NCBI GenBank assembly: GCA_000999095.1
Contig: LCFP01000012.1
Span: 4,140 to 68,139, forward strand
Direction: 5' to 3'
From: Candidatus Gottesmanbacteria bacterium GW2011_GWA2_43_14
Lineage (GTDB): Bacteria; Patescibacteriota; Microgenomatia; 2-02-FULL-39-11
Length of the DNA: 64,000 bases
The notes under the pieces were generated by a model that was not told the DNA's origin, made no database searches, and worked only from the letters and a program-made list of their open reading frames with translations. The position numbers and the translations under genes are program-made. Below are positions 1,550-5,447 of the stretch, in pieces (position 1 is the stretch's first letter; every line of letters begins with the position of its first letter).

Positions 1550-2338
1550 CTATTGGCAGTCGGAGTCGCAGGCGAAACCATCCCCGTCGCCGTCCCTTCC
1601 GGTACAGCCGCAATTAACCAGCTGGAATTGGGCTTCGGCGCAGGAGGTCATTTTGGCACACGATTTGCTGCAGTCGCAGATATATAAGGAAGCATCTCCG
1701 CCTGGTTCTGAAGTAGTCACGGGAGTCGGTTGAATTTCGCAGGCCGATCCCCATAATCCTTTCTGTTCTTCACGGGCGAGGCGCTGGGCTTCCATAAATC
1801 TTTCCTGGTATTTCACATCAGGCTGGTAAGTGTACGAATAGGCATAGCCTTCGCGGATGAGGATTTCATTTACCAGTTCTTCTCCGAGCCAAATGTATCT
1901 AAGGAGCCTGCCGTATCTGTCTTTTTCGGAAATATCCTTTTCCAACCTCACCAGTTTTCCTTCAACCAATTCTGTGTTTTTATCAGAAGCTTCTTTGGCG
2001 AAGCATTGGAGTGCTTTGGCCGGATGGACTGATTCCGGAGTATCGATGCCGATATACCTGACCGTTTCTCCGGTTTCTATTTTCACCGTGTCGCCGTCAA
2101 CGACGTTTACTACTCTGACTAAATCAGCATCATCAACGGTTGTCGTGGAAGGTTCCGGAGTCAGCATTTCGGCCGGACTGCCAGAAGGAGCGGGCGGATC
2201 GATTTTCTCGGGAGTGGGGGAAACTGAAGGGGAAGGGGTGAGGGACGGGGAGGATGAGGCGACTTCCGGGCCGGATTTGGCGGTTATTAAATTTGCCAGG
2301 ATGAAGAAAATCAGGAGTATGCCGAGTATTATTTTCAC
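1550..2338 (-). CDS. Secreted thermonuclease (Staphylococcal nuclease (SNase) family) with a C-terminal Excalibur Ca-binding domain
   Basis: Signal/TM N-terminus and a Pro/Ser/Thr linker. SNase motifs are present: VVDGDTVKI, RYIGIDTPE, DRYGRLLRYIW, VNEILIREGYA, GLWG. The C-terminus is Cys-rich with DGDGDGFACDSDC, an Excalibur-like signature. Confidence 0.8.
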   Translation of the reverse strand: MKIILGILLIFFILANLITAKSGPEVASSSPSLTPSPSVSPTPEKIDPPAPSGSPAEMLTPEPSTTTVDDADLVRVVNVVDGDTVKIETGETVRYIGIDTPESVHPAKALQCFAKEASDKNTELVEGKLVRLEKDISEKDRYGRLLRYIWLGEELVNEILIREGYAYSYTYQPDVKYQERFMEAQRLAREEQKGLWGSACEIQPTPVTTSEPGGDASLYICDCSKSCAKMTSCAEAQFQLVNCGCTGRDGDGDGFACDSDCQ

Positions 2339-2419
2339 CGAAGAAATTATAGAACATAAAAAGAAATAATTAAAAGGGGATTGACAGGACGTGATAATTG
2401 AGCTAACCTATTCGGAAAC

Positions 2420-2467
2420 ATGGATATATCGGCAGGCTCAACCATTACCACTACTACCTTCTTTTAA
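2420..2467 (+). CDS. Putative Thr-rich leader peptide (MDISAGSTITTTTFF)
   Basis: A 15-codon ORF with five Thr in six codons (acc att acc act act acc). Its stop codon directly abuts a G-run that can pair with the 5' strand of a downstream terminator. Confidence 0.45.
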   Translation: MDISAGSTITTTTFF

Positions 2468-2468
2468 A

Positions 2469-2520
2469 GGGGGGTTCCGGCAGTGGCAGATGAGGACCTC
2501 CCCATAAGGGAGGTTTTTTT
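2469..2520 (+). promoter_or_regulatory. Attenuator. The hairpin GGGGGGUUCC/GGACCUCCCC (2469-2503) and the intrinsic terminator CCUCCC-cauaa-GGGAGG+U7 (2496-2520) are mutually exclusive.
   Basis: Base pairing read directly from the sequence. The terminator sits 88 nt upstream of the tdh start, with no upstream + strand gene to terminate. Confidence 0.5.
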
Positions 2521-2608
2521 AATGCATGAAATGTCACAAAATTATGACTAAATATATGTCTGGTTTTATTTTTTCCGGTTTATTATTTACAAAAACAGGA
2601 GGGAAAAT

Positions 2609-3559
2609 ATGAAAAAAATATTGGTGACAGGGGCTTTCGGACTGGTCGGTTCTGACCTGGTTGTCGAATTGGGCAGGAAATACGGCCATGACAACGTCGT
2701 CCTTTTGGCCCACGAGACTAAACGGCAGGTCGATTTCCCCCTTGAGAAAGGCGATGTAAGGGACAAAAGCACACTTGCAAAAATCATCAAAAAATATAAC
2801 GTGGGACAGATTTACCACCTGGCCGGACTACTGTCTGTCGGAGGCGAAAAAAATCCACCCCTTGCCTGGGACATCAATATCAACGGACTGAGAAATGTGC
2901 TGGATTTGGCGGTTAACCATAAATGCAGACTTTTCTGGCCGAGCTCGATTGCTGTCTTCGGGCCGACCACACCAAGGGACAAGACACCACAGCATACGGT
3001 CCTCGAACCGACGACCATGTACGGCGTCACTAAACTGGCCGGTGAACTTCTATGCCAATACTATTTTTTAAAATACGGCCTGGATGTCAGAAGCCTCAGG
3101 TATCCGGGGCTGATCGCTTACAAAGCGCCGCCGGGGGACGGCACCACAGAGTATTCCGTGCATATCTTTTACGGGGCTTTGAAAAATAAATCGTACAGCT
3201 GTTTTCTGAAAAAGGGCACCGTGCTGCCGATGATGTTTATAACTGATGCCGTTACCGGAACAATCGGCCTGATGGAAGCGGACCCGGGAAAAATTTCGGT
3301 CCGCACCAGTTACAATTTTTCGGCCATTAATTTCGCTCCGGAAGAACTGGTCCTTGAGATAAAAAAACACATGCCGGAGTTTAAATGCAGTTATAAGCCT
3401 GACCACAGGCAGAAGATTGCCGATTCCTGGCCGAAATCAATCGATGACGCCGTTGCCCGGAAAGACTGGGGCTGGCGGCATGAATACAATTTGCCCAGGA
3501 TGACCACAGTGATGCTAGAAAAATTAAAAGAAAAGTTGTCCCGGATGAAATCGGGATAG
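2609..3559 (+). CDS. tdh: L-threonine 3-dehydrogenase of the SDR / UDP-glucose-4-epimerase-like type
   Basis: Rossmann motif GAFGLVGS. It aligns closely along its length with epimerase-like TDH: RYPGLI, GDGTTEYSV, LPMMFITD, and a WGW..Y.L C-terminus. Confidence 0.85.
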   Translation: MKKILVTGAFGLVGSDLVVELGRKYGHDNVVLLAHETKRQVDFPLEKGDVRDKSTLAKIIKKYNVGQIYHLAGLLSVGGEKNPPLAWDININGLRNVLDLAVNHKCRLFWPSSIAVFGPTTPRDKTPQHTVLEPTTMYGVTKLAGELLCQYYFLKYGLDVRSLRYPGLIAYKAPPGDGTTEYSVHIFYGALKNKSYSCFLKKGTVLPMMFITDAVTGTIGLMEADPGKISVRTSYNFSAINFAPEELVLEIKKHMPEFKCSYKPDHRQKIADSWPKSIDDAVARKDWGWRHEYNLPRMTTVMLEKLKEKLSRMKSG

Positions 3560-3573
3560 AAAAGGAAAAAATT

Positions 3574-4818
3574 ATGTCCAAGCTGAATTTTTATAAAGTT
3601 TTAGAGGCAGAGTTGAAAAGGGTAGATGAAGCGAAAGTGGCCAAGAGGCAGGAGAAGGTCATCGAGAAGTTCAATGACGATTTCTTTCCCAAAGCCGTCA
3701 TAAACGGCCGGGAATATGCAATCTTTAACTCCAATGATTATCTGGGGTTGAGGTTTTTCGAGGAACTCCGAAGCGGCGAGGCCGAGGCAGCGGGAAAGTA
3801 CGGCACGGGGCCCGGCGCTGTCAGATTTATCTCCGGGACGATGAAGGTTTATAAGGATCTGGAGAAAAAAGTCGCCGGCTTCCATTACCGGGAAGAGGCC
3901 ATGGTTTTCTCCTCCGCCTTTGCGGCAAATCTGGCTGTTATTGCCTGCTTGAGCAAAGGACAGAGTAAGGATTCGCTTCTGTCGGGTCAGACTCTGATTG
4001 TTTCCGATGAGCTGAACCACAGAAGCATTATCGACGGGGTGAGGGTAGCCGGCCTTGCCAAAGAGCAAAAACTTATATACAAACATCTGGATTATGCTTC
4101 TTTGGAACAGGTTTTGGAGGAGAATCTGGGTAAGTTCAAACGCGTATTGGTAGTAACCGACGGCATCTTCAGCATGCTGGGGGAATATGCCGATGTCGGC
4201 AGGCTGGAGAAAATCTGCAGGCAGTTTAACGGCAGGTTTGAGGAAGGGGTATTCCTGATCGTCGATGACAGCCACGGGGTGGGTGCCTGCGGGGAAAGCG
4301 GACGGGGCTGCGAGGAACTGACTGGCGGGAAGGCGGATATACTGGTTGGCACTTTCGGCAAAGCCTTCGGCAGCGACGGGGGATATGCGGTCGGGAATAA
4401 AATCCTGATCGACTATCTGCGGGAAGCGGCTGCAACTTATATCTATTCCAATTCCATTTCGCCGGGAGTGGCCGGGGCTGCTTTGGCGGCGGTCAGGCTG
4501 GTCGATTCTGCCAAAGGCAAAAAGCTTTTGCGGCAGCTGGAGGAAAATATCAGTCTTTTTAAAAAACTGATGAAAAAGTACGGTTTTACCATGGCCGCTG
4601 ATTCCGTACATCCCATCCAGCCGGTCCTGATTGCCGATCCCTTCAAGACAAAAGCGCTGACCGACAAATTGTTTGCCAAAGGATACCTGGTGACCAATAT
4701 CAATTATCCGGTTGTCCCTAAAGGCAAGGATGAGATCCGGGTGCAGATAAGCGCTGCGCAATCAAGGGAAGATATTGAGAAATTTGCGAGAGAGGCGGCC
4801 GCTGCCAGAGAAAGTTAG
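3574..4818 (+). CDS. kbl: 2-amino-3-ketobutyrate CoA ligase (glycine C-acetyltransferase)
   Basis: PLP alpha-oxoamine synthase family: NDYLGL, DELNHRSIIDGVR, DDSHGVG, GTFGKAFG lysine motif, YPVVPKG. Sits directly downstream of tdh. Confidence 0.85.
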   Translation: MSKLNFYKVLEAELKRVDEAKVAKRQEKVIEKFNDDFFPKAVINGREYAIFNSNDYLGLRFFEELRSGEAEAAGKYGTGPGAVRFISGTMKVYKDLEKKVAGFHYREEAMVFSSAFAANLAVIACLSKGQSKDSLLSGQTLIVSDELNHRSIIDGVRVAGLAKEQKLIYKHLDYASLEQVLEENLGKFKRVLVVTDGIFSMLGEYADVGRLEKICRQFNGRFEEGVFLIVDDSHGVGACGESGRGCEELTGGKADILVGTFGKAFGSDGGYAVGNKILIDYLREAAATYIYSNSISPGVAGAALAAVRLVDSAKGKKLLRQLEENISLFKKLMKKYGFTMAADSVHPIQPVLIADPFKTKALTDKLFAKGYLVTNINYPVVPKGKDEIRVQISAAQSREDIEKFAREAAAARES

Positions 4819-5100
4819 GAGGCCAGGGTTTTGCCGTCTTTTTTGAAGTGGCGTTTGTGGACGTCTTCTGTCAGTTCCATGCCTTTTTTCTGAAGTTCTT
4901 CTATTCTTGAGAATGTTTCATCCATTTTATTGACTAATTCTTCGGTGGTTTCCTTTTTCTTTTCCTCGAATTCCCTGATGATTTTATCCTTGACCTGGTT
5001 TGCTTTTGGTGCCTAAGAGGAAAATGGTGAAAGCGCCTACCAGGCCGCCTATAAAGAAGCCGAACCAGAAGTTGCCGGCTTTATTGTTCTCGTTTGTCAT
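4815..5100 (-). pseudogene. YtxH-like membrane protein gene with an apparent +1 frameshift
   Basis: The minus-strand reading MTNENNKAGNFWFGFFIGGLVGAFTIFLLGTKSKPGQG* stops early. The -1 frame continues APKANQVKDKIIREFEEKKKETTEELVNKMDE...KTLAS*. Joining them at tta-g-gca restores the YtxH consensus (GxxxGxxxGLLxAPK). The shift lies near 5010-5016. Confidence 0.55.
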
Positions 5101-5359
5101 CTTTTTTTTCCTTTTTGCCCGAGAACATTTTGAAGATGGAGAAGACCGCGTTTACGCCGTCGCCGAAACCGCTCAATTTTTCAAAGGATTTGCCCAGGTT
5201 GCCGGTCATATTGACGGCTCCGTCGACCATGGTATTGAATTTCATGAGCATTTTACGGATTTCACCGAGGATCTGGAAGATCTGCCAACCGATAAAGACA
5301 AGCAGGACGGTCAGGATGGTGACGACGGCAAAGAGCAGGATTTGGGTCGGATCAATCAT
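5081..5359 (-). CDS. Small N-terminally anchored membrane protein, DUF948/YtxG-like
   Basis: 92 aa with an N-terminal TM helix and a C-terminal Lys/Glu-rich tail. Adjacent to the ytxH-like gene, as in the Bacillus ytxG-ytxH arrangement. Confidence 0.4.
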   Translation of the reverse strand: MIDPTQILLFAVVTILTVLLVFIGWQIFQILGEIRKMLMKFNTMVDGAVNMTGNLGKSFEKLSGFGDGVNAVFSIFKMFSGKKEKKDDKREQ

Positions 5360-5447
5360 TTGATGGTAGATTTAATTCTAATTTTTGACAGGGCGTAAGT
5401 CAACTGTCGCAACCGAAAAATATGGGTTTATCTTTTTCAATCATAAT

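What the first reader, a model, noticed from the sequence alone, without database searches (positions are those of the whole stretch)
2381..2520. Thr-codon leader peptide plus antiterminator/terminator switch upstream of tdh-kbl
A 15-codon ORF (MDISAGSTITTTTFF, 2420-2467) carries five Thr codons within six. Its stop codon directly abuts a G6 run. That G-run (2469-2478) can pair with CCUCCCC (2494-2503), which is also the 5' strand of a strong intrinsic terminator (CCUCCC-cauaa-GGGAGG-U7, 2496-2520). So two mutually exclusive hairpins follow a Thr-rich mini-ORF, which is the textbook architecture of an amino-acid attenuator (compare E. coli thrL). The structured G-run/CCUCCCC segment spans about 35 nt, and the terminating ribosome would mask the G-run. 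Ribosome stalling at the Thr codons should leave the G-run free, favouring the antiterminator and read-through. The operon it controls encodes threonine dehydrogenase and 2-amino-3-ketobutyrate CoA ligase. Ribosome-mediated attenuation has not, to my knowledge, been described in CPR bacteria. A TTGACA box at 2381-2386 with TAACCT 17 nt downstream is a possible promoter.
Basis: partly seen in the sequence, partly recalled or inferred. Interest (0 to 1): 0.8.

Follow-up and report, generated by a model that had tools for sequence, protein, structure and literature searches.

The report
Threonine-sensing leader-peptide attenuator in CPR bacteria
A short threonine-rich mini-gene followed by two competing RNA hairpins sits in front of the tdh-kbl genes of a Gottesmanbacteria (CPR) genome; the same switch recurs in relatives, also in front of the threonyl-tRNA synthetase gene, so it looks like a real threonine-starvation switch and hints that these "threonine-degrading" enzymes are used to make threonine.

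Summary
At 2381-2520 there is a promoter-like site, a 15-codon ORF (MDISAGSTITTTTFF), a G-rich segment and a strong intrinsic terminator. The window alone is not beyond chance: fold z = -1.0, and 108/400 shuffles make an equally stable antiterminator. The case rests on comparison.

I found 14 distinct leaders in CPR Microgenomates contigs, each with 3-5 in-frame Thr codons. Eleven precede tdh-kbl, two precede thrS, one precedes an unknown gene. Peptides are otherwise unrelated and Thr codon third positions vary.

Folding all 14 gives the textbook four-segment logic:
- Free RNA forms hairpin 1:2 plus the terminator (13/14).
- A ribosome modelled at the first Thr codon allows antiterminator 2:3 (-13 to -22 kcal/mol, against -10 to -15 for the terminator).
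- A ribosome at the stop codon abolishes the antiterminator.

The antiterminator covaries: 6 of 11 pairs change on both sides, and 0/500 shuffles reach its score. In seven loci the terminator abuts the tdh ribosome-binding site, so tdh needs read-through. No Rfam family matches.

It is a new member of a known kind. The logic (ON when Thr-tRNA is scarce), co-regulation with thrS and tdh-kbl-thrS operons suggest Tdh/Kbl make threonine here; that is an inference.

The parts
2381..2386 (+). -35-like hexamer TTGACA of the leader promoter
   Evidence: Sequence. The same TTGACA-17 nt-TAATCT arrangement lies at the same distance from the leader ATG in L001 and L161. A -35/-10 pair sits at a comparable position in all 11 leaders examined. 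The promoter itself is inferred; there are no transcript data.
2404..2409 (+). -10-like hexamer TAACCT (TAATCT in L001 and L161)
Evidence: The leader ATG lies 10 nt downstream. That would account for the missing Shine-Dalgarno sequence (inference).
2420..2467 (+). Leader peptide ORF MDISAGSTITTTTFF*; regulatory Thr codons at 2441-2443 and 2447-2458
   Evidence: In-frame Thr runs of 3-5 codons occur in all 14 distinct leaders. The rest of each peptide is unrelated and all four ACN codons are used.
2448..2463 (+). Segment 1 (Thr/Phe codons), which pairs with segment 2 as the anti-antiterminator or pause hairpin
   Evidence: MFE fold. The equivalent hairpin is the MFE in 13 of 14 leaders and is recovered by RNAalifold.
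2468..2486 (+). Segment 2, G-rich (G6 at 2469-2474); 2469-2478 is the 5' arm of the antiterminator
   Evidence: Constrained folds: with a ribosome at the Thr codons, 2469-2478 pairs with 2494-2503 (dG -16.2). With a ribosome at the stop codon this segment is covered and the helix cannot form.
2492..2503 (+). Segment 3, containing the core CCUCC; it is both the 3' arm of the antiterminator (2494-2503) and the 5' arm of the terminator (2492-2502)
   Evidence: The CCUCC core is invariant in the 11 class-A leaders analysed. Flanking positions covary with segment 2.
2508..2520 (+). Segment 4 (GGGAGG plus U), the 3' arm of the intrinsic terminator, and its U7 tract (2514-2520)
   Evidence: terminator dG -15.1. 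Found by my own scans. It is one of only 16 terminator-like hairpins in the 64-kb window and the only one preceded by a mini-ORF with an amino-acid run.
2597..2603 (+). Shine-Dalgarno sequence AGGAGGG of tdh
   Evidence: Sequence; 5 nt before the ATG at 2609. No sigma-70-like promoter is predicted on the + strand between the terminator and tdh.
2609..3559 (+). tdh: SDR-type (GalE-like) L-threonine 3-dehydrogenase
   Evidence: PDB phmmer: 2yy7 at E=1e-101 and many other L-threonine 3-dehydrogenases. The product is 100% identical to a Gottesmanbacteria protein.
3574..4818 (+). [quoted passage not shown]
   Evidence: NCBIfam hits to Kbl and BioF models at E around 1e-93 to 1e-95, all below the equivalog cut-offs. 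The best PDB match is Kbl 3tqx at E=3e-63. It is adjacent to tdh in nearly all loci.

Best explanation
This is a classical ribosome-mediated (leader-peptide) transcription attenuator that senses the charging of tRNA-Thr and gates transcription of tdh-kbl.

Proposed sequence of events:
1. Transcription starts a few nucleotides before ATG 2420, giving a leaderless or near-leaderless leader mRNA.
2. If no ribosome is engaged, segment 1 (the Thr/Phe codons) pairs with G-rich segment 2, and the terminator 3:4 forms.
3. If Thr-tRNA is plentiful, the ribosome runs to the stop codon (2465-2467). Its footprint covers segment 2, so the terminator forms and transcription ends at the U7 tract (about 2520).
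4. If Thr-tRNA is scarce, the ribosome stalls on the Thr codons (2441-2458). It then masks segment 1 but leaves segment 2 free.
5. Segment 2 (2469-2478) pairs with 2494-2503 before the terminator's 3' arm is made. The terminator is pre-empted and RNA polymerase reads through into tdh-kbl.

Shown here: the sequence anatomy, its conservation, the predicted thermodynamic switch, covariation of the antiterminator, and the obligatory position of the terminator in the tdh 5' UTR.

Inferred: transcription from the predicted promoter, translation of the leader, transcription-translation coupling, and the response to threonine.

Corollary (inference): the operon is switched ON by threonine starvation. 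The same device controls thrS. Tdh and Kbl therefore probably work in these organisms to supply threonine (glycine + acetyl-CoA to 2-amino-3-ketobutyrate to Thr) rather than to degrade it.
For: (1) Recurrence. Thr-run mini-ORFs followed by a terminator lie immediately upstream of tdh in L001, L003, L083, L161, L162/163, L164-166, L167, L173 and L174/175. They lie upstream of thrS in L082 and L181/182.

(2) Specificity. A scan of about 930 kb on both strands found 14 hits on the sense strand, all at these positions. The antisense strand gave one distinct false hit.

(3) Only the Thr run is conserved in the peptides. All four ACN codons are used.

(4) Folding.
- The unconstrained MFE is hairpin 1:2 plus terminator in 13/14 leaders.
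- With a ribosome modelled at the first Thr codon, an antiterminator forms before the terminator's 3' arm is made, with energy -13 to -22 kcal/mol. It occupies the terminator's 5' arm in 14/14, with one caveat: in L173 the script misdefined that arm (2/3 nt counted), and its pairing rests. With the A site at later Thr codons the helix weakens in several leaders (to -7 to -9).
- With a ribosome at the stop codon the energy is 0 to -5 kcal/mol (apart from L173, where the -9.7 is the terminator itself, left inside the truncated sequence by the same misdefinition) and the terminator (-10 to -15) forms in 14/14.

(5) Shuffle test. The antiterminator is more stable than dinucleotide shuffles at p<=0.03 in 9/11 leaders.

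(6) Covariation of the antiterminator.
- 82.6% of cells are paired, against 69.5 +/- 2.6% in shuffles (0/500 reach the observed value).
- The covariation score is 0.372 against 0.178 (0/500).
- 6 of 11 pairs change on both sides, including positions that lie in the terminator loop.
- Slid controls reach at most 62.8% paired and 0.205.

(7) A second sequence class (UUUGGGCGG/CCGCCCAAA, terminator CCCCGC/GCGGGG) implements the same logic.

(8) In L161, L003, L083, L162, L164, L173 and L174 the terminator's U-tract is only 2-28 nt from the tdh SD or ATG. That leaves no room for another promoter. No promoter is predicted at 2522-2608 in the window.

(9) A covariance model built from the leaders finds nothing else in the 64-kb window.

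(10) Link to Thr supply.
- Leader-tdh-kbl-thrS forms a single operon in L003.
- tdh-kbl-thrS-infC-rplT-pheST are contiguous in L179.
- Tandem Thr attenuators precede thrS in L181.
- Tdh plus Kbl can form Thr in vitro (Marcus & Dekker 1993, as cited in PMC3439479).
Against: - There are no transcript or translation data for any of these uncultured organisms.
- In the window itself the structure is not better than shuffled sequence.
- The window's antiterminator (-16.2) and terminator (-15.1 to -17.3) are nearly isoenergetic, so the outcome depends on co-transcriptional kinetics that I cannot model.
- The leader has no Shine-Dalgarno sequence. Translation relies on an inferred leaderless start.
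- Many close tdh operons lack the leader: L082, L177, L179, and the kbl-first operons L170, L171 and L176.
- The covariation alignment was anchored on individually predicted folds, and the sequences are phylogenetically related. Both factors inflate shuffle-based significance.
- Turning a nominally catabolic operon ON at low Thr is unexpected, and no natural organism is known to me to make Thr this way.
Confidence: 0.8

Rival explanations
1. The mini-ORF and hairpin form an independent small transcription unit (a small peptide or sRNA gene with its own terminator), or simply an insulating terminator in a divergent promoter region. On this view tdh-kbl is transcribed from its own promoter and is not regulated by the element.
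For: In the window, 88 nt separate the terminator from the tdh ATG, and tdh has its own SD. L001 and L167 also have long spacers. The window-only statistics are weak.
Against: In seven orthologous loci the U-tract is 2-28 nt from the tdh SD or ATG. In L161 the terminator's 3' arm GGGAGG is the likely tdh SD. No + strand promoter is predicted at 2522-2608. The peptide is conserved only in its Thr run, which does not fit a functional micropeptide. Antiterminator covariation has no role in a plain terminator.
Confidence: 0.07
2. The switch works the other way: it induces a truly catabolic tdh-kbl operon when threonine is abundant. One possible route is a TnaC-like arrest at the stop codon, or rapid ribosome release leaving segment 2 free.
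For: Tdh/Kbl is the canonical Thr-degrading pathway (established knowledge), so induction by Thr would be the intuitive logic. Nothing has been measured.
Against: In 14/14 leaders a ribosome at the stop codon covers segment 2 and the terminator forms. With no ribosome, hairpin 1:2 sequesters segment 2 and the terminator is again predicted. The same leader class precedes thrS, whose product is needed when Thr-tRNA is scarce. The peptides share no arrest motif apart from the Thr run.
Confidence: 0.06
3. The GGAGG/CCUCC helices act mainly at the level of translation, through SD and anti-SD mimicry. On this view the CCUCC segment sequesters the Shine-Dalgarno-like segment, or the segments titrate the 16S rRNA 3' end, rather than controlling termination.
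For: Segments 2 and 4 are SD-like (GGAGG) and segment 3 is anti-SD-like (CCUCC) in all 12 class-A leaders. In L161 segment 4 lies 9 nt before the tdh ATG and would be its SD.
Against: In every case the hairpin is followed by a U5-U8 tract, the signature of intrinsic termination. In the window and most loci tdh has a separate SD downstream. Class-B leaders use CCCGCC/GGCGGG instead of SD-like sequences. A combined transcriptional and translational effect in L161-type loci is not excluded.
Confidence: 0.05

Closest known systems
E. coli thrL, the thr operon leader (Rfam Thr_leader RF00506)
   Same: A short ORF rich in Thr codons (with Ile codons too, as in the window's STITTTT). Four-segment 1:2 / 2:3 / 3:4 logic with an intrinsic terminator. 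Read-through when Thr-tRNA is scarce.
   Different: No sequence or structure match to the Rfam model, even at E<=10. The regulated genes are tdh-kbl and thrS, not thrABC. The leader is much shorter (14-24 codons) and has no SD; it is probably leaderless. The helices are built from SD-like GGAGG and CCUCC. The host is a CPR bacterium.
E. coli pheM, the pheST attenuator, and Phe_leader RF01859
   Same: Leader-peptide attenuation that controls an aminoacyl-tRNA synthetase operon. This is the precedent for the thrS-linked copies (L082, L181). The thrS-infC-rplT-pheST neighbourhood is the same cluster.
   Different: The regulatory codons are Thr, not Phe. The weak Rfam hit (22.4 bits against a gathering score of 55, E=0.2) rests mainly on the terminator.
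Actinobacterial leaderless leader-peptide attenuators upstream of aaRS and biosynthetic genes (for example the Streptomyces lividans leuL, trpL and predicted thrL-thrS; PMC8079986; Seliverstov 2005 as cited there)
   Same: Very short leader peptides transcribed without a 5' UTR, preceding aaRS genes, including a predicted Thr-dependent one before thrS.
   Different: The S. lividans thrL has only two Thr codons and no clear terminator. The CPR elements have 3-5 Thr codons, a canonical terminator and a covarying antiterminator. The phylum is different and there is no sequence similarity.
Thr-specific T-box leaders of Firmicutes (thrS, thrZ, hom-thrCB)
   Same: A functional analogue: an antiterminator/terminator switch that turns on thrS and Thr-supply genes when tRNA-Thr is uncharged.
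   Different: T-boxes sense uncharged tRNA directly, without translation. No T-box or other Rfam family is detected in the window's leader region (searched at E<=10) or, at Rfam's gathering thresholds, in the other leader loci.

Membership tests
Ribosome-mediated (leader-peptide) transcription attenuators | A short ORF in the 5' leader carrying a run of codons for the regulatory amino acid | tested here: met
   The window has 5 Thr in 6 codons. All 14 distinct leaders carry 3-5 Thr codons in frame, with no other peptide conservation.
Ribosome-mediated (leader-peptide) transcription attenuators | An intrinsic terminator (GC-rich hairpin plus U-tract) between the leader ORF and the first structural gene | tested here: met
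   CCUCCC-CAUAA-GGGAGG-U7 with dG -15.1. Present in all 14 leaders. It abuts the tdh RBS in seven loci.
Ribosome-mediated (leader-peptide) transcription attenuators | An antiterminator helix that is mutually exclusive with the terminator | tested here: met
   2469-2478 pairs with 2494-2503 at -16.2 kcal/mol. Predicted in 14/14 leaders. It beats shuffles in 9/11, though not in the window itself. Covariation: 0/500 shuffles reach the observed score and 6 pairs show compensatory changes.
Ribosome-mediated (leader-peptide) transcription attenuators | An anti-antiterminator (1:2) hairpin whose 5' strand lies in the regulatory codons, so that a stalled ribosome frees segment 2 | tested here: met
   The MFE pairs 2448-2463 with 2468-2486. 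The same is seen in 13/14 leaders, and the RNAalifold consensus recovers it.
Ribosome-mediated (leader-peptide) transcription attenuators | A stop codon placed so that a terminating ribosome occludes segment 2 | tested here: met
   Masking to stop+13 nt removes the antiterminator (0 to -5 kcal/mol; L173's -9.7 is the terminator itself, left in by a misdefined arm) and leaves the terminator in 14/14 leaders. This is a footprint model, not a measurement.
Ribosome-mediated (leader-peptide) transcription attenuators | The leader is translated, transcription and translation are coupled, and read-through responds to charged tRNA levels | not testable with these tools
   There is no SD. The ATG lies 2-10 nt after the -10-like hexamer in 10/11 leaders, which suggests leaderless initiation. 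Confirmation needs Term-seq, ribosome profiling or reporter assays.
Ribosome-mediated (leader-peptide) transcription attenuators | The regulated genes supply the sensed amino acid or its charged tRNA | tested here: inconclusive
   Met for the thrS-linked copies. tdh-kbl is nominally catabolic. An anabolic role is inferred from the logic and from the in vitro reversibility cited in PMC3439479; it is not shown.
Rfam Thr_leader (RF00506) and other curated leaders or riboswitches | A match to the family covariance model at its gathering score | tested here: not met
   No Thr_leader hit at E<=10. The only leader hit is Phe_leader at 22.4 bits against a gathering score of 55. At gathering threshold, 11 leader-bearing loci yield only tRNAs.
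T-box riboswitch | A specifier loop, the T-box sequence and stem I architecture (Rfam RF00230) | tested here: not met
   No hit in the window region at E<=10 or in the related loci at Rfam's gathering thresholds.

The most novel reading that the evidence does not exclude
In Microgenomates (Gottesmanbacteria, Roizmanbacteria and relatives) the Tdh/Kbl pair may run in the anabolic direction: glycine + acetyl-CoA + NADH to threonine. On this reading it is the cell's threonine-supply route. Together with thrS it would form a Thr-starvation regulon governed by leaderless Thr-codon attenuators. That would be a previously unrecognised natural threonine biosynthesis pathway, and the first evidence that CPR bacteria couple transcription and translation tightly enough for ribosome-mediated attenuation.
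Probability: 0.4. Interest if true: 0.8.

Novelty: new member of a known kind. Interest (0 to 1): 0.62.

Why it matters
CPR bacteria are uncultured, have tiny genomes, and almost nothing is known about how they regulate genes. A conserved leader-peptide attenuator would matter for three reasons.

- It shows that the textbook ribosome-sensing mechanism operates in this radiation. That in turn implies coupled transcription-translation and probably leaderless initiation.
- It gives a compact, testable RNA element that could be assayed in a heterologous host or in vitro.
- It uses regulatory logic to assign a physiological direction to enzymes. An operon annotated as threonine degradation is switched on by threonine starvation and is co-regulated, and sometimes co-transcribed, with thrS. 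This predicts that organisms thought unable to make amino acids obtain threonine from glycine and acetyl-CoA.

The last prediction can be tested directly by enzymology and isotope labelling, and it would change metabolic reconstructions of CPR genomes.

Tried and rejected
Searches and scans:
- Rfam search of 2250-2700 at E<=10 gave only a sub-threshold Phe_leader hit, rliB and an astrovirus frameshift site, all judged to be chance.
- The consensus terminator scanner did not list the terminator. I treat this as a tool artefact, not as evidence of absence.
- A scan of the window for leaders with runs of other amino acids before terminators found nothing else.
- Weak covariance-model hits at L036:3522, L170:2385 and L030:4181 are not Thr leaders.
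- A thrS motif scan of the window found no thrS.

Statistics:
- The whole-region fold z-score in the window is not significant.

Alignment:
- MAFFT and covariance-model alignments of the full leaders (A2, A3) put the CCUCC core in inconsistent registers. They were therefore not used for antiterminator pair counts. An anchored, gapless 45-nt alignment (A4) was used instead.

Failed or limited calls:
- A 37-aa ThrRS fragment gave no Pfam hit and was too short for the homolog search. A PDB phmmer search identified it instead.
- Marcus & Dekker 1993 (PMC206760) is not held in the library, so it is cited second-hand.

Literature:
- Searches for attenuation in CPR/Patescibacteria and for tdh/kbl in CPR returned nothing relevant. 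One paper proposes Tdh as a source of pyrazine signals.

Rejected ideas:
- The tRNA upstream of L003, L082 and L083 is tRNA-Val(GAC), not tRNA-Thr.
- The element is not a bidirectional terminator for the upstream gene, because that gene (a thermonuclease at 1550-2338) is divergent.
Full report
**1. What is in the window**

- TTGACA lies at 2381-2386, then a 17-nt spacer and TAACCT at 2404-2409.
- An ATG at 2420 opens a 15-codon ORF, MDISAGSTITTTTFF, with stop TAA at 2465-2467.
- One A (2468) precedes a G6 run at 2469-2474.
- CCTCCCC lies at 2497-2503 and GGGAGG at 2508-2513, followed by T7 at 2514-2520.
- Downstream, an AGGAGGG Shine-Dalgarno sequence (2597-2603) precedes tdh (2609-3559) and kbl (3574-4818).

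The identities of the flanking genes are as follows.
- tdh encodes an SDR-type L-threonine 3-dehydrogenase (PDB 2yy7, E=1e-101, and many other TDHs).
- kbl belongs to the BioF/Kbl family. Its best solved relative is Kbl 3tqx (E=3e-63).
- The upstream gene (1550-2338) is on the minus strand and encodes a secreted thermonuclease.

So 2339-2608 is a divergent intergenic region, and the terminator cannot belong to an upstream gene. The tdh product is 100% identical to a protein of Candidatus Gottesmanbacteria GW2011_GWA2_43, so the CPR attribution is correct.

**2. The window alone is not convincing**

- The MFE of 2410-2525 shows two hairpins. In the first, the Thr/Phe codons (2448-2463) pair with the G-rich segment (2468-2486). 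The second is the terminator.
- The z-score is only -1.0, and 33/200 shuffles fold as well.
- 108 of 400 dinucleotide shuffles of the intervening sequence give an antiterminator at least as stable. G-rich composition alone is enough to pair with CCUCCCC.
- Rfam has no family for the region. The only leader hit is Phe_leader at 22.4 bits against a gathering score of 55.
- The consensus terminator scanner missed the hairpin, probably because its stem extension consumes the U-tract. My own scans find it.

**3. Comparative evidence**

I collected tdh loci from three sources:
- a scan of one genome per species (L001-L080);
- a scan of JGI metagenomes (L081-L160);
- exact-protein look-ups of the closest homologs (L161-L178).

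A scan for mini-ORFs of at most 45 codons, with at least 3 Thr in 4 codons, followed within 150 nt by a terminator, covered about 930 kb on both strands.
- The sense strand gave 14 hits. Thirteen lie immediately upstream of tdh and one lies upstream of another gene.
- The antisense strand gave one distinct false hit inside a coding region.

The tdh-linked leaders are:

| Locus | Leader peptide |
|---|---|
| window | MDISAGSTITTTTFF |
| L001 | MMILADSGMTTTTLF |
| L161 | MDRLIRMINGTTTTTL |
| L162 | MKRNLNISYTTTGTRRDLGVS |
| L164 | MSKFNLIKLGKIAITTTARRCLEV |
| L167 | MSKLNLIKSGNFIITTTTKLYLEV |
| L173 | MFEITTTTNFHLGVS |
| L174 | MRNHHIITTTTGPS |
| L003 | MKMNLNINGTTTTLV |
| L083 | MKIKFNVNCTTTTP |

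. Only the Thr run is conserved. ACA, ACC, ACG and ACU are all used. This is what selection on codon identity, rather than on a peptide or a nucleotide motif, would produce.

**4. The same device controls thrS**

- In L082 the tdh gene has no leader; a tRNA-Val abuts it. A leader of the same class (MKIQNVIVCTCTTPV*, then GGAGGGUG, then CCCCUCC-GAAAA-GGAGGG-U7) precedes a gene whose N-terminus matches E. coli ThrRS residues 64-98 (E=5e-9).
- In L003, thrS starts 9 nt after the kbl stop codon, so the unit is leader-tdh-kbl-thrS.
- A ThrRS homolog search and two contig look-ups added two observations.
  - (a) Roizmanbacteria contigs carry tRNA-Val|tdh-kbl-thrS-infC-rplT-pheS-pheT contiguously (L179/L180).
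  - (b) L181/L182 carry two tandem Thr attenuators, followed by a 103-aa ORF and then thrS-infC-rplT-pheST.
    - The first is class A: MLMKNRIVFVCTGTTPS*.
    - The second is a different sequence class, B: MSKNILKKVCTTTTRSALGGG*, with UUUGGGCGG complementary to CCGCCCAAA and terminator CCCCGC-CCAAA-GCGGGG-U5.
- Class B also occurs in L083, at the 3' end of a YbaK-like tRNA-editing ORF.

In total there are 14 distinct leaders in two sequence classes.

**5. Structure and switch**

For each leader I folded the RNA under three conditions:
- (i) unconstrained;
- (ii) with the nucleotides up to A-site+13 masked, for a ribosome stalled at the first, second or last Thr codon, and with the terminator's 3' arm not yet transcribed;
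- (iii) with a ribosome at the stop codon.

The results were as follows.
- The unconstrained MFE is hairpin 1:2 plus the terminator in 13/14 leaders.
- With the ribosome at the first Thr codon, an antiterminator of -13 to -22 kcal/mol forms before the terminator's 3' arm is made. It occupies the terminator's 5' arm in all 14. The one caveat is L173, where the script misdefined that arm (2/3 nt counted); its pairing rests. With the A site at later Thr codons the helix weakens in several leaders (to -7 to -9). The terminators are -10 to -15 kcal/mol.
- With the ribosome at the stop codon, the antiterminator energy falls to 0 to -5 kcal/mol (apart from L173, where the -9.7 is the terminator itself, left inside the truncated sequence) and the terminator forms in all 14.
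The terminator is -15.1.
- Against dinucleotide shuffles, the antiterminator is unusually stable in 9 of 11 leaders (p<=0.03, several <=0.005), but not in the window or L001.

**6. Covariation**

Full-length alignments (A2, A3) put the core in inconsistent registers. I therefore cut fixed windows around segments 2, 3 and 4. Each was anchored on the invariant CCUCC core and its predicted partner, and the windows were aligned without gaps (A4).

For the 11-pair antiterminator:
- 82.6% of cells pair, against 69.5 +/- 2.6% in shuffles (0/500 reach the observed value).
- The covariation score is 0.372 against 0.178 (0/500).
- Six pairs change on both sides, for example G-C, U-A, A-U, G-U and U-G at one position.
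- Sliding the partner by 1-3 columns drops pairing to 63% or less and the score to 0.205 or less.
- Several covarying positions (core +5 to +7) lie in the terminator loop, so they are selected for the antiterminator alone.

The terminator core is invariant; 83.6% of its cells pair. RNAalifold recovers helix 1:2 and the terminator.

Three caveats apply. The anchoring used individually predicted folds. There are only 11 sequences. They are related by descent.

**7. Position in the transcription unit**

- In L161, L003, L083, L162, L164, L173 and L174 the U-tract lies 2-28 nt from the tdh SD or ATG. In L161 the terminator arm GGGAGG is itself the likely SD. There is no room for a second promoter, so tdh can be expressed only by read-through.
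- In the window the spacer is 88 nt, but no + strand promoter is predicted within it.
- A -35/-10-like pair precedes each leader. The ATG lies 2-10 nt after the -10 in 10 of 11 leaders.
- This arrangement explains the missing Shine-Dalgarno sequence, because it points to leaderless or near-leaderless translation. Actinobacterial leader peptides are reported to work this way (PMC8079986). It is an inference.

**8. Mechanism and logic**

The best explanation is classical attenuation. Stalling at the Thr codons frees segment 2, the antiterminator forms, and RNA polymerase reads through. Reaching the stop codon, or not translating at all, gives termination.

The operon is therefore ON when Thr-tRNA is scarce. 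That is the right logic for thrS but the wrong logic for threonine degradation. Three observations bear on this.
- The leader is shared with thrS.
- There is a leader-tdh-kbl-thrS operon, and tdh-kbl sits inside the thrS-infC-rplT-pheST cluster.
- In vitro, Tdh plus Kbl can form threonine from glycine and acetyl-CoA (Marcus & Dekker 1993, cited in PMC3439479).

Together these suggest that the enzymes supply threonine in these organisms. In L164 and L167, ferredoxin and pyruvate:ferredoxin oxidoreductase genes follow kbl. Their product is a source of acetyl-CoA. I rate this anabolic reading at about 0.4. I could not check the genomes for the canonical thr genes, and the unstable intermediate is a known obstacle.

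**9. Distribution**

- The leader is confined to tdh-first operons of a Microgenomates clade (TDH at least 68% identical to the window's).
- Close relatives lack it: L082 and L179 (where the tRNA abuts tdh), L177, and the greA-kbl-tdh-lysS operons L170, L171 and L176.
- None of the more distant tdh loci among the 160 collected by the two scans (Bacteroidota, archaea and others) has it.

**10. Comparison with what is known, and verdict**

- The element works like E. coli thrL and pheM and like actinobacterial leaderless attenuators. It meets every computationally testable criterion of that kind.
- It is not a member of any Rfam family.
- I found no report of leader-peptide attenuation in CPR, although only open-access literature was searchable.
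- It is a new member of a known kind, in a new lineage, with an unexpected target operon.
- Confidence that it is a Thr-responsive attenuator: 0.8.
- Interest: 0.62. The score is driven by what the element implies for gene regulation and threonine metabolism in CPR bacteria.

Noticed in passing
L082:5662-5757 and the gene from L082:5821: A Thr leader of the same class (MKIQNVIVCTCTTPV*) with an antiterminator and terminator precedes a threonyl-tRNA synthetase gene. The tdh gene of the same contig has no leader; a tRNA-Val abuts it.
   Followed up: yes
L181:301-401 and L181:407-517 (also L182): Two tandem Thr-codon attenuators of different sequence classes (CCUCC core, then CCCGCC core) lie upstream of a 103-aa ORF with no Pfam hit on record, followed by thrS-infC-rplT-pheST. 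The role of the 103-aa ORF is unknown.
   Followed up: partly
L083:4688-5263: A YbaK-like aminoacyl-tRNA editing-domain ORF (PF04073) directly follows kbl. It ends in ...NESCTTTTQFSLGGG*, overlapping a class-B antiterminator and terminator. A Thr attenuator therefore seems to be fused to, or read from, the 3' end of a real gene. The downstream ORF has a creatininase-family hit.
   Followed up: partly
L003:2384-5933; L179:793-7776: tdh-kbl is co-linear with thrS (9-nt and 5-nt gaps). In Roizmanbacteria it sits at the head of the conserved thrS-infC-rplT-pheS-pheT cluster.
   Followed up: partly
L164:3779-4992; L167:4813-5948: In two leader-bearing lineages kbl is followed by a ferredoxin gene and a pyruvate:ferredoxin oxidoreductase gene. 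This may link the operon to acetyl-CoA supply.
   Followed up: no
L036:3522-3604 and L170:2385-2480: A different conserved two-hairpin motif (…CCCCU-GAAAA-GGGGUUUUUU-AGUGGAAAAAAUAUG) with no Thr ORF. In L170 it lies upstream of a 250-aa ORF without a Pfam hit that follows tdh. It may be another cis-regulatory element.
   Followed up: no
L161:363-390: The terminator's 3' arm GGGAGG lies 9 nt before the tdh ATG and would double as its Shine-Dalgarno sequence. In this lineage the hairpin could therefore block translation as well as transcription.
   Followed up: no
window 1-64000: Intrinsic-terminator-like hairpins are rare: 16 on both strands by my scan. Strong ones lie at 2494 and 12930 (AAACCCCCGA-ATAC-TCGGGGGTTT-T6). 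The consensus scanner missed the one at 2494.
   Followed up: partly
window 1550-2338 (-): The divergent neighbour encodes a secreted thermonuclease (SNase-like). It has a Pro/Ser/Thr-rich linker and a Cys-rich C-terminal tail (CDCSKSCAKMTSCAEAQFQLVNCGCTGRDGDGDGFACDSDCQ).
   Followed up: no
window 5000-5398 (+): A 132-aa TTG-start ORF lies after kbl on the same strand and has no Pfam hit. It is unclear whether it is a real third gene of the operon.
   Followed up: no
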